Origin: Escherichia phage Evi
DNA: 40,019 nucleotides
Sequence record: LR597642
Reading direction: 5' to 3' (one strand)
Positions 12,001-15,000 of the stretch are shown here, piece by piece. Position numbers: made by a program. The stretch's first letter is position 1. Every line of letters begins with the position of its first letter.

Positions 12001-15000
12001 TCACCGGGCGTCCGCTGCCATCGCTGCGCATGACAACTTCCCCGGCCTCTTCATTCACCAGCGGAATGACAAAACCAAAAATATTAATGAGGATAAATAC
12101 ATGCCAGTCCATCAACTCAATGGGCTGGCCTGCCAGCGCCCCTTTCACATGGGGCACAAATTTGTAGAAATTCAGGATGTGCTGCGCACGGGGTTCACTG
12201 AAATAAATCCCCCGCTCTTCGCCGTACTTCAGATCATCAAGAAAACGCTGGCAGGCCAGACGGACAAATTCGCCAGCGACAATTTCTCCTGCAACAACAC
12301 GTTCGGCGTAGCGGATCCCGTCAGCCACTTTTGCCATCAGTCTCTCGCTTTTAAAAGCTCCGCCAGCGGATCAACATCATCCGGTCCGGCGGTATTTACT
12401 TTAGCCCGGCTTGCCGGTGACATACCAAACTCTGCAAGCATCGCCCGGATCCGCTTCCAGGCATCCGCCTTCATCGCAGCAGCCGGGTGTGCCTTGATCA
12501 GCACATCACCGTTCTGCGTTTCCGTGCGGTAGGTATAACCCTCAGCATCAAGTGTTTCGCAGTGATGCCGGTATTCGGTGTAGGCTTCCACCAGTAACTC
12601 GAGTGCACGCGCATCAAGCTGAGAAATGATCCCTTCCGCATTCAGTTCTTCCGCCATTCGCCTGAACCAGTACTTCCCCTGCGACCCTAAATGTTGCGGA
12701 ATTTTAGGGAGACCTTTTTCATCCTTTTTAGCGGTTTTTTTTGGGTCTTTAACGGGGCGCTTTGAGGGGTTGCCTCGTATCAAATGCAGGCGTGGCGGGG
12801 TTTTCGGGGGTCCTGACATAATCGGTTTTACCTATCAATCATTTAATCACATTCCAAAAAAAACCGCTAAAAAGGATGAAAAAGGTCTCCCTAAAATTCC
12901 GCAACATTTAGGGTCGCAGGGGAAGTACTGGTTCAGGCGAATGGCGGAAGAACTGAATGCGGAAGGGATCATTTCCCACCATGAGCTTTCGGAATGATGT
13001 GGTCCACAGTTCTGGCTTCAACGGCTCTCCCATTGCGCAGGCAGTTCTGACACAGATGATTATCACGCTTCAGTATGCGCGCACGTATGGCATCCCATTT
13101 CGAGCCATAGCCACGCTGGTGGCGACTCAGTCCGCGTTGATGCTGTACCCATCCTTCGCCACGATGTTTATCGCAGTAACCAGAACTGTCAGTGGTTGTA
13201 CCTGCACATCCACGCTTACGGCAGGCGCGTGGGATTCGTGATGGCATAAATACCTCATACCCTGCGAAATGTTTACCACGATAAAAAGGCTACTTAATGC
13301 ACTGAGTGCGGATATACTCCTGTGCCCCTTCCAGTTGCTTCTGCATCGTCATCAACCGTTCTCTGAGGGTGAAATAATCCCGTTCAGCGGTGTCTGCCAG
13401 TCGGGGGCTGGTTGCATTATCCACGCCGGAGGCGGTGGTGGCTTCACGCACTGACTGACAGACTGCTTTGATGTGCAACCGACGACGACCAGCGGCAACA
13501 TCAGCGCGCAGAGTTTCATTTTCAGCTTTCGCATTGGCTAATTCTCTCGAGTACTTTGCATCGAGCGCAGCAACATCACGCTGACGCTGCTGCATGTCAG
13601 CGATGGTGGCGATCGCCTGCTTCAGCTCACTGACTTTTTTATCACGCTGTTCTTTGTAGGCGATGGCGTTATCACGGTAATGATTGACCGCCCACGACAG
13701 GCAGACGATGATGCAAATAACCAGAGCATAAATAATCGCGGCGACTCTGCTCACTGATCTATCCCCCAACAGGCTAATGCGCTTTCCTGGTCACGACGAA
13801 TAACCTGTCCATAGCAGTTATTTGAACGTATGCGGCAATCGCGCCCACCATCTTTTATCCACCAGCGAATCGCCTCGCATGCGCCCTTACGATCACCGGC
13901 ATTCAGCCGCTTATAAAACGTCGACGGAAAACACTTACCGGGGCCAATGTTATAGGGACAAAATGACGCGATCCCCGCTTTTTGTGGTTCTGTCAGTGGC
14001 ACTTTAATATTGCGTTCCACCCATGCCAGCGCCTTATCACGCTCAATGGCGTTAACCTGGGCGCATTTTTCCTTCGTCAGTTTCATGCCTGGAATAACAG
14101 GTTTACCATCAACCATTGTTGCCCCCCGACAGATGGTCCATATGCCGGAACCATCGCGGTATGCCGCTGTGTGGTTACCTTCTTTTTCGTCCAGAAACTG
14201 GTCGAGTATTTGAGGAGCAGACGCGCCTGCAGCAATCAGCGCCAGAACGGCTGCTGACAGGCCGTATTTGATATTAGCATTCATGGATATTTATCAGGAT
14301 TTATCAGTTTCTAATCTCTAGATATGTTAAGCACTCAGCCCGTCAGTGGTGGATACTGGCGTGTGTAATAAAGGGGGGATGGCTGATTACCTCTGATAAG
14401 GGAATGTAACTATGAACGGTATAGATCCATTCAAACCAATCAGTAAGCAACTTGATGTGGTATTACCACAACTGACAAAACACAACGACCTTCTGGATAA
14501 AGTGTTGCCTTTTTATATTGCTGTTACCGCGAAATTATCAGGTAAAACTCGAGAAGAGGTTCTCAAATATAACATGCTGGCTTTAGAAACAATTTTTGGC
14601 TCAGAAAAAGCGGGAAAATCACCCAAAGAGCTGGCAGAATCTCAATTTGCTTATATGACAAATATAAGAGTATCCGAAATCTTTGATAAGCTACCAGACA
14701 TTGAATAATTTCTAAGCGGCATTACTGCCGCTTTATATTTTTTCAGCCAAATCTCTCAAGAACTGTTTGGCATGTTTTACCGCAGTAACTTCATAATAAT
14801 CCAAACCAGCTCCTTCAAGTCGCTCAAGGTTGATGTTCAGATCAAAAATTTCACCGGCAAAACGTTCTTTGTCCTGTAACGTTAAGATTACCGTAACTTT
14901 ATTCTCAAAATTGCGGGTCCCTTTCACAATCAGTTCATAGTTTTTAGTCATTGTCTTACTCTCCTCTCGCAGCCTTACGCCTGTCTTCTTTAATCTTGAA

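What the first reader, a model, noticed from the sequence alone, without database searches (positions are those of the whole stretch)
12623..12975. 122-bp perfect inverted repeat bracketing the terS start, inside the predicted cos region
Plus-strand 12854-12975 is the exact reverse complement of 12623-12744, which encodes terS codons 26-66. The arms are separated by a 109-bp spacer containing terS codons 1-25 and its upstream region. The right arm fills the HNH-terS intergenic gap, where HK97-like phages carry cos, and overlaps the last codons of the HNH gene. This could form a large cruciform at the packaging site, be an invertible segment that would toggle terS between a full and a truncated N-terminal form, or be a rearrangement or assembly artefact. 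I do not know of such a structure as a standard feature of this module.
Basis: seen in the sequence. Interest (0 to 1): 0.6.

Follow-up and report, generated by a model that had tools for sequence, protein, structure and literature searches.

The report
Inverted-repeat scar replacing phage cos site
The 122-bp inverted repeat is really present in the deposited genome of coliphage Evi, but it replaces 182 bp that should hold the DNA-packaging cut site and the end of an essential nuclease gene, so it is most likely a chimeric join across the ends of the linear virus DNA and not a working feature.

Summary
In detail: 12623-12744 and 12854-12975 are perfect reverse complements (122 nt, 109-nt spacer), and this is the only large inverted repeat in the window. 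The right arm does not sit inside the cos region. It replaces that region. Compared with every relative, 182 bp are missing and 112 nt of inverted terS sequence stand in their place. One E. coli contig is 100.000% identical over 5,292 flanking bases yet has the intact segment. By homology to phiP27's annotated cos and to the ends of the SfV record, the lost 182 bp contain cos. They also encode the last 25 residues of the HNH nuclease (Asn, second CxxC, final His). The inner edges of the arms coincide with a 10-nt inverted repeat (T8GG/CCA8) that unrearranged relatives already carry, which is the signature of a polymerase strand switch. The window is the complete record of Escherichia phage Evi (LR597642), a plaque-purified phage sequenced from DNase-protected virion DNA, assembled with SPAdes and then rotated to phage phi467's start point. 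A viable cos phage cannot lack cos, so the repeat is most likely a chimeric bridge across the physical genome ends. No other public sequence carries either junction. Interest is low, but the record needs correction.

The parts
12623..12744 (-). Left arm: the original sequence, terS codons 26-66
   Evidence: Perfect reverse complement of 12854-12975. The identical 122 nt occur once, in terS, in relatives.
12735..12744 (.). TTTTTTTTGG: left half of the pre-existing 10-nt inverted repeat at the inner end of the left arm
   Evidence: Present in all 8 loci with identical TerL and in strain 50EVA, 109 nt from CCAAAAAAAA.
12745..12853 (-). 109-nt spacer: terS codons 1-25 plus 34 nt of upstream leader. 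Ordinary ancestral sequence.
   Evidence: Collinear with relatives.
12854..12863 (.). CCAAAAAAAA: right half of the pre-existing 10-nt inverted repeat. Junction 1, with 10/10 microhomology.
   Evidence: The ancestral intergenic sequence reads ...CATTCCAAAAAAAAGTTTTCG. The window reads ...CATTCCAAAAAAAACCGCTAAAAAGG.
12864..12975 (+). 112 nt of new sequence: an inverted copy of terS codons 28-66 that replaces 182 ancestral bp
   Evidence: Alignments A1 and A2 and breakpoint analysis.
12975..12976 (.). Junction 2: end of the inverted copy joined to HNH codon 91, with only 6/9 imperfect similarity
12969..13247 (-). Truncated HNH endonuclease gene (92 aa instead of 116). It lacks Asn, the second CxxC and the last His.
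   Evidence: Pfam HNH profile positions 1-27 of 47 only, against 1-47 in relatives. Alignment to GVE2 HNH 5h0m. Key residues of that enzyme are listed in PMC5304195.
12337..12819 (-). terS (P27 family, Terminase_4), intact
   Evidence: The exact protein occurs on 864 contigs.
10580..12337 (-). terL (HK97-type ATPase plus nuclease), intact
   Evidence: The exact protein was found on 23 contigs read.

Best explanation
The repeat is the product of a DNA-polymerase strand switch that started at a 10-nt inverted repeat (T8GG ... 109 nt ... CCA8). That short repeat lies naturally between terS and cos. A strand ending in CCAAAAAAAA paired with TTTTTTTTGG on the opposite or same strand and copied 112 nt of terS backwards. 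The molecule then continues in the HNH gene, 182 bp further on. The resulting chimera lacks cos and the HNH C-terminus. It entered the record because virion DNA of this cos phage is linear and ends inside the missing 182 bp. No ordinary read crosses the ends, so a rare chimeric molecule gave the only path that closed the circle. That molecule may have formed in library preparation, or in infected cells without being packaged. The contig was then rotated to phage phi467's first base, which put the join in the interior of the record. The real, plaque-forming phage Evi is inferred to carry the ordinary 182-bp cos/HNH segment. What is shown: the structure, the replacement, the pre-existing 10-nt repeat, the identity of the record, and how it was produced. 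What is inferred: the exact position of cos, the strand-switch mechanism, and the claim that the chimera is not the packaged genome.
For: (1) 182 bp are replaced by 112 nt of inverted terS. (2) Contig L015 is 100.000% identical over 4,784 + 508 flanking nt but has the 182-bp segment and one terS copy. All 23 contigs with identical TerL have the intact interval. (3) 913 of 5,426 complete E. coli genomes hold the intact interval and none holds the junction. Both junction strings are absent from genome, viral and metagenome contig collections and from PLSDB. The truncated HNH protein is absent from about 15 billion proteins. (4) phiP27's annotated cos and the SfV record ends map 30-49 nt into the missing segment. 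The segment occurs nowhere else in the window. (5) The HNH keeps only profile positions 1-27 of 47. The lost part aligns with N109, C114, C117 and H118 of GVE2 HNH. HK97's HNH gp74 promotes cos cleavage (PMC9410871). (6) The window is phage Evi, 40,019 bp. It was plaque-purified, and DNA came from PEG-precipitated, DNase-treated lysate. [quoted passage not shown] The window starts at the same base as phi467 and closes seamlessly inside gene K. (7) The 10-nt inverted repeat lies exactly at the inner arm ends in all unrearranged close relatives. Inverted chimeras that prime on short complementary stretches are documented for library preparation (PMC10908179; PMC1855051).
Against: No reads were available, so read support at the junctions is unknown. 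The two junctions are only 122 nt apart, so k=127 assembly needs reads that contain both. That means one chimeric molecule species present in several copies, which is not what independent random chimeras give. A simple SPAdes hairpin extension at k=127 predicts an arm ending at 12980, not 12975. The authors' description (terminal repeats removed) suggests the graph really closed on itself. The sister phage Fraca from the same study shows no comparable repeat at its termini. The position of cos is inferred from homologues and was not measured for Evi.
Confidence: 0.7

Rival explanations
1. This is a genuine, heritable rearrangement of the Evi genome. An in vivo replication template switch (quasipalindrome type, or break-induced after a cos cut) extended the 10-nt inverted repeat to 122 nt, deleting cos and the HNH C-terminus. 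The deposited sequence is then the true majority molecule.
For: The two-switch structure with 10/10 microhomology at one junction and 6/9 similarity at the other (p about 0.01 for that register) is what in vivo template switching produces (PMC7202029). A single species carrying both junctions fits a replicated molecule better than random chimeras do. The phage encodes a RecE-like exonuclease (27689-30169) that could expose single strands at cos ends.
Against: Evi was plaque-purified and sequenced from DNase-protected particles. A genome without cos and with half an HNH domain should not be packaged. The flanks are 100% identical to an intact prophage, so there has been no time for compensatory change. 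The junctions are not seen in any other sample.
Confidence: 0.2
2. The repeat is a functional structural element at the packaging site, such as a cruciform or hairpin recognised by terminase.
For: It lies next to terS. As a single strand it would fold into a 122-bp stem (RNA fold -270 kcal/mol, z = -32.6).
Against: It is unique to this record. All relatives with the same TerS/TerL use the ordinary interval. It removes the conserved cos-region motifs rather than flanking them. From general knowledge, a 109-nt spacer makes cruciform extrusion from duplex DNA very unfavourable.
Confidence: 0.02
3. The 109-bp spacer is an invertible segment, and recombination between the arms switches terS between a full-length form and a 66-residue N-terminal fragment.
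For: 122-bp arms are long enough for RecA-dependent inversion. In the flipped state codons 1-66 would read into HNH antisense and stop after a few residues (ORF 12626..12997 +).
Against: The neighbouring genes are terL, terS, HNH and lysis genes, not a recombinase. Neither orientation is seen in any other sequence. The chimeric + strand ORF is absent from 15 billion proteins. The arrangement is not conserved, so nothing suggests selection.
Confidence: 0.01

Closest known systems
Quasipalindrome-associated template-switch mutations (Ripley model; E. coli thyA/lacZ reporters, PMC7202029)
   Same: A short imperfect or short perfect inverted repeat nucleates a strand switch. The newly made DNA is the exact reverse complement of the neighbouring sequence, so the repeat becomes longer and perfect. 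Synthesis then returns to the original template.
   Different: Classical events convert a few bases. Here 112 nt were copied and 182 bp were lost. Whether the event happened in a cell or in a tube is unknown.
Inverted chimeras from library preparation or multiple displacement amplification (MDA) (PMC10908179; PMC1855051)
   Same: The junctions join nearby opposite-strand sequence, with an intervening deletion, at 2-21 nt of complementarity. MDA chimeras are described as 'inverted sequences with intervening deletions'.
   Different: Such chimeras are normally rare and individually unique, and they do not reach a consensus. Here one became the consensus, which needs the special circumstance of uncovered physical genome ends. 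MDA is not reported for this sample.
HK97 / phiP27 / SfV-type HNH-cos-TerS-TerL packaging module
   Same: The gene order is the same: HNH, terS (Terminase_4), then terL (HK97-type ATPase and nuclease). Relatives share the conserved intergenic cos region.
   Different: The window's copy lacks the cos region and 25 C-terminal residues of HNH, so as deposited it is not a complete module.
Site-specific invertible segments (Hin/Gin/Cin type, as recalled from the literature)
   Same: Inverted repeats bracket a segment that carries the start of a gene.
   Different: Those have short recombination sites of about 26-34 bp, an adjacent serine invertase, both orientations present in populations, and conservation among relatives. 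None of these applies here.

Membership tests
HK97/P27-type cos packaging module | Small terminase of the P27/Terminase_4 family directly upstream of an HK97-type large terminase | tested here: met
   PF05119 at 4.5e-26; PF03354 and PF20441 in the 585-aa TerL.
HK97/P27-type cos packaging module | Complete HNH (beta-beta-alpha-metal) endonuclease gene next to the terminase genes | tested here: not met
   Only HNH profile positions 1-27 of 47 are present. Asn, the second CxxC and the last His are missing.
HK97/P27-type cos packaging module | cos site in the HNH-terS intergenic region | tested here: not met
   The 182-bp segment that aligns with phiP27's annotated cos and the SfV termini is absent from the interval and from the whole window.
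Template-switch (quasipalindrome-type) product | A short inverted repeat pre-exists at the inner arm boundaries in unrearranged relatives | tested here: met
   T8GG / CCA8, 10 nt, 109-nt spacer, in 8 of 8 identical-TerL loci; 9-11 nt in EC12 and 50EVA.
Template-switch (quasipalindrome-type) product | The new DNA is an exact reverse complement of adjacent sequence and replaces the original template stretch | tested here: met
   112 nt identical to the reverse complement of 12623-12734, replacing 182 bp.
Template-switch (quasipalindrome-type) product | Microhomology at the return junction | tested here: inconclusive
   6 of 9 matching bases, with a terminal mismatch. This could also be a join of contig ends.
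Assembly or library chimera at the physical ends of a linear genome | The structure is absent from otherwise identical genomes and from all other samples | tested here: met
   L015 has 100% identical flanks with an intact interval. No hit for either junction in any collection.
Assembly or library chimera at the physical ends of a linear genome | The anomaly brackets the physical termini of the sequenced molecule, and the original contig ends were joined during finishing | tested here: inconclusive
   cos maps inside the missing segment by homology only. The record was rotated to phi467's nt 1. Evi's own termini were never mapped.
Assembly or library chimera at the physical ends of a linear genome | Junction reads are rare compared with genome coverage, and reads for the missing segment exist | not testable with these tools
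   No raw reads were available. Evi-specific proteins occur only on the deposited record.
Site-specific invertible DNA switch | An invertase/recombinase gene is adjacent, both orientations are observed, and the arrangement is conserved in relatives | tested here: not met
   The neighbours are terL, terS, HNH and lysis genes. No second orientation and no other occurrence were found.

The most novel reading that the evidence does not exclude
Phage Evi really carries the 122-bp inverted repeat in place of cos and still forms plaques. That would mean packaging without the canonical cos sequence or a complete HNH nuclease, for example with terminase cutting a hairpin or cruciform formed by the repeat, or with spacer inversion controlling TerS.
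Probability: 0.03. Interest if true: 0.8.

Novelty: not a real feature. Interest (0 to 1): 0.12.

Why it matters
The main value is curation. The public record of Escherichia phage Evi (LR597642) very probably misrepresents its packaging region: cos is missing, HNH is truncated, and 112 spurious bases are present. Anyone using it for cos, terminase or HNH comparisons would be misled. More generally, a large perfect inverted repeat at the expected cos position of a circularised or rotated assembly of a cos phage should be read as a warning of a false closure across the physical ends. If the molecule did form in vivo, it would be a clean example of a 10-nt inverted repeat seeding a 122-bp one in a single step. 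That belongs to a known class of event.

Tried and rejected
1. Searched both junction sequences in complete E. coli genomes, GTDB species representatives, IMG/VR, JGI metagenomes and PLSDB. There were no hits, so the structure is not recurrent or conserved.
2. Looked up the truncated HNH and the chimeric + strand ORF by exact sequence. Neither is on record.
3. Looked for the missing 182 bp elsewhere in the window, in case it had been translocated. Only chance 10-15-nt matches were found.
4. Tested whether a SPAdes k=127 hairpin extension explains the arm length. It predicts an end at 12980 and the observed end is 12975, so this simple model is not met.
5. Looked for the same kind of scar at the termini of sister phage Fraca from the same study. 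None was found, so there is no evidence of a systematic pipeline artefact.
6. Checked whether length variation at this locus in relatives resembles the repeat. 813R8-type phages carry bor between HNH and Rz, and PhiR49_2 has a 735-bp insertion between cos and HNH. Both keep cos and HNH.
7. Considered that the window was a chromosomal slice across tandem prophages. Rejected, because gene K closes seamlessly across 40019/1 and the record was identified.
8. Tried to retrieve LR597642 with its annotation. It is not in the collection.

Full report
OBSERVATION. The inverted repeat exists as described. Positions 12623-12744 and 12854-12975 are perfect reverse complements (122/122). With three mismatches the arms extend to 131 nt, and 109 nt lie between them. 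It is the only inverted repeat of 40 nt or more in the window, so chance is not an issue. On the - strand the locus reads HNH (13247..12969), terS (12819..12337), terL (12337..10580). Pfam confirms a P27/Terminase_4 small terminase and an HK97-type large terminase. The left arm is terS codons 26-66. The spacer is codons 1-25 plus 34 nt of leader.

WHAT THE RIGHT ARM REALLY IS. Alignment with the closest prophages and with phage phi467 shows a replacement, not an extra element in the intergenic gap. Relatives read ...CATTCCAAAAAAAA, then 182 bp, then CCACCATGAGC.... The window reads ...CATTCCAAAAAAAA, then 112 nt that are the reverse complement of terS, then CCACCATGAGC.... The net change is -70 bp. 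The lost 182 bp comprise most of the HNH-terS intergenic region and the last 25 codons of HNH. The HNH ORF is 92 aa instead of 116 and covers only positions 1-27 of the 47-position Pfam HNH profile. The missing residues (TDADSNLQSLCWPCHKAKTARERIN) align with N109, C114, C117 and H118 of the solved packaging-type HNH of phage GVE2 (5h0m). These are the motif Asn, half of the zinc site and the last His.

COS LIES IN THE MISSING PIECE. phiP27 is 85% identical across this stretch and carries an annotated 10-nt cos site. The SfV record ends at its physically defined termini in the same stretch. Both map 30-49 nt into the 182-bp segment, next to a conserved motif GATTTGACCCGCCCCTCCCC. Neither that motif nor any other part of the segment occurs anywhere else in the window. 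In HK97 the HNH protein gp74 promotes terminase cleavage at cos (PMC9410871). As deposited, therefore, the genome lacks both the cut site and a functional copy of the accessory nuclease.

HOW UNUSUAL IT IS. Of 5,426 complete E. coli genomes, 913 contain the intact interval and none contains the junction. Both junction strings are absent from the GTDB representatives, IMG/VR, JGI metagenomes and PLSDB. The truncated HNH and the chimeric + strand ORF are absent from about 15 billion proteins, whereas the terS protein is on 864 contigs. All 23 contigs read that encode an identical TerL have a full-length HNH (one copy cut by a contig end) and the normal spacing. One of them, L015 (GCA_028909715.1), is 100.000% identical to the window over 4,784 nt on one side and 508 nt on the other. 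It still has the 182-bp segment and a single copy of the arm. The event is therefore either extremely recent or not biological.

MECHANISM OF FORMATION. In every unrearranged close relative there is already a 10-nt inverted repeat, TTTTTTTTGG in terS and CCAAAAAAAA upstream of it, 109 nt apart. These lie exactly at the inner ends of the window's arms. This is the classic footprint of a strand switch. A 3' end terminating in one half pairs with the other half and copies the neighbouring sequence in reverse, which turns a short repeat into a long perfect one. This is the Ripley/Lovett quasipalindrome model (PMC7202029). The other junction (12975|12976) shows only 6 of 9 matching bases. It could be a second switch or simply a join of contig ends. 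The same kind of inverted, deletion-associated chimera that primes on short complementary stretches is well documented in vitro. Sonication libraries give chimeric reads containing cis and trans inverted repeats (PMC10908179). In multiple displacement amplification (MDA), more than 85% of chimeras are inverted with intervening deletions and prime on 2-21 nt (PMC1855051).

WHERE THE SEQUENCE COMES FROM. Exact protein look-ups identify the window as Escherichia phage Evi, with a contig length of 40,019 bp, accession LR597642. [quoted passage not shown] DNA was taken from PEG-precipitated, DNase/RNase-treated lysate. MiSeq reads were assembled with SPAdes 3.13 (--meta, k up to 127). A single high-coverage contig was accepted as complete. 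[quoted passage not shown] Evi's stated relative is phi467, and the window starts at exactly phi467's first base. It closes seamlessly inside tail gene K. So the original contig ends were joined and moved to the interior of the record.

INFERENCE. A phage that makes plaques, and whose DNA was protected inside capsids, must have a working cos. The deposited sequence has none. The missing 182 bp bracket the place where the linear virion DNA ends, and that is the one place where ordinary reads cannot bridge. I conclude (confidence about 0.7) that a rare strand-switch chimera supplied the only path across the ends and was fixed in the record when the contig was closed and rotated. That chimera may have formed during library preparation, or in infected cells without being packaged. 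The true genome would then have the ordinary interval. The main rival (about 0.2) is that the rearrangement is genuinely the majority molecule. This fits the single species carrying both junctions, but it conflicts with viability. Functional readings (a cruciform packaging signal, or an invertible terS switch) are at the few-percent level. The structure is unique, it removes conserved elements rather than flanking them, it has no recombinase nearby, and no second orientation is seen. If it were real, the late transcript would fold the two arms into a 122-bp duplex (-270 kcal/mol, z = -32.6), which would more likely harm terS expression than regulate it.

LIMITS. I had no reads. The cos position rests on homologues. 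A simple k=127 hairpin-extension model predicts an arm 5 nt longer than observed. The sister phage Fraca shows no similar scar. Both junctions lie within one k-mer length, so several copies of one chimeric molecule are required. These points keep the in vivo origin open. They do not rescue a functional interpretation.

VERDICT. It is not a new biological system. Interest is low, apart from the need to correct the record.

Noticed in passing
window 1-83 and 39355-40019 (- strand): The window is a closed circle opened inside tail gene K. The K N-terminus (…CGFVVR) runs off position 1 and continues in frame at 40019 (TPEGERYF…). The start base is identical to that of the phi467 record (LN997803), because the authors set nt 1 relative to that reference.
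   Followed up: yes
window 32279-32890 (+), tandem repeats 32534-32869: A 203-aa EspF-repeat / TccP2-like type III effector gene with three 141-nt tandem repeats lies between the tail-fibre genes and attP/int (30456-31475). The exact protein occurs on 30 E. coli contigs. The source paper mentions an EspV effector in Evi but not this one.
   Followed up: partly
L005 (50EVA) about 1031-1050; L006 (phiP27); L007 (SfV); absent from the window: A 20-nt motif, GATTTGACCCGCCCCTCCCC, is conserved just on the HNH side of cos in phiP27, SfV and the E. coli prophages. It is more conserved than the cos 10-mer itself. It may be a terminase or HNH recognition element. Its function is unknown to me.
   Followed up: no
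L009 (PhiR49_2, PV340570) about 950-1690: A related phage has a 735-bp insertion with a 171-aa ORF immediately after that motif, between cos and the HNH stop codon, and its HNH 3' end is divergent. 813R8-type phages carry bor between HNH and Rz (L008). This neighbourhood is a hotspot for inserted accessory genes (morons).
   Followed up: partly
window 27689-30169 (+): An 826-aa RecE/exonuclease VIII-like gene. Its 5'-3' resection of cos ends could expose the single strands needed for an in vivo fold-back at the T8GG/CCA8 repeat.
   Followed up: no
PMC6969025 methods (not a window coordinate): The kit is named 'Trueseq nano', but the clipped tags (CTGTCTCTTATACACATCT…) are, to my knowledge, Nextera mosaic-end sequences. 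Tagmentation would leave the last tens of bases of linear virion DNA poorly covered, and that would favour a false closure across the ends.
   Followed up: no
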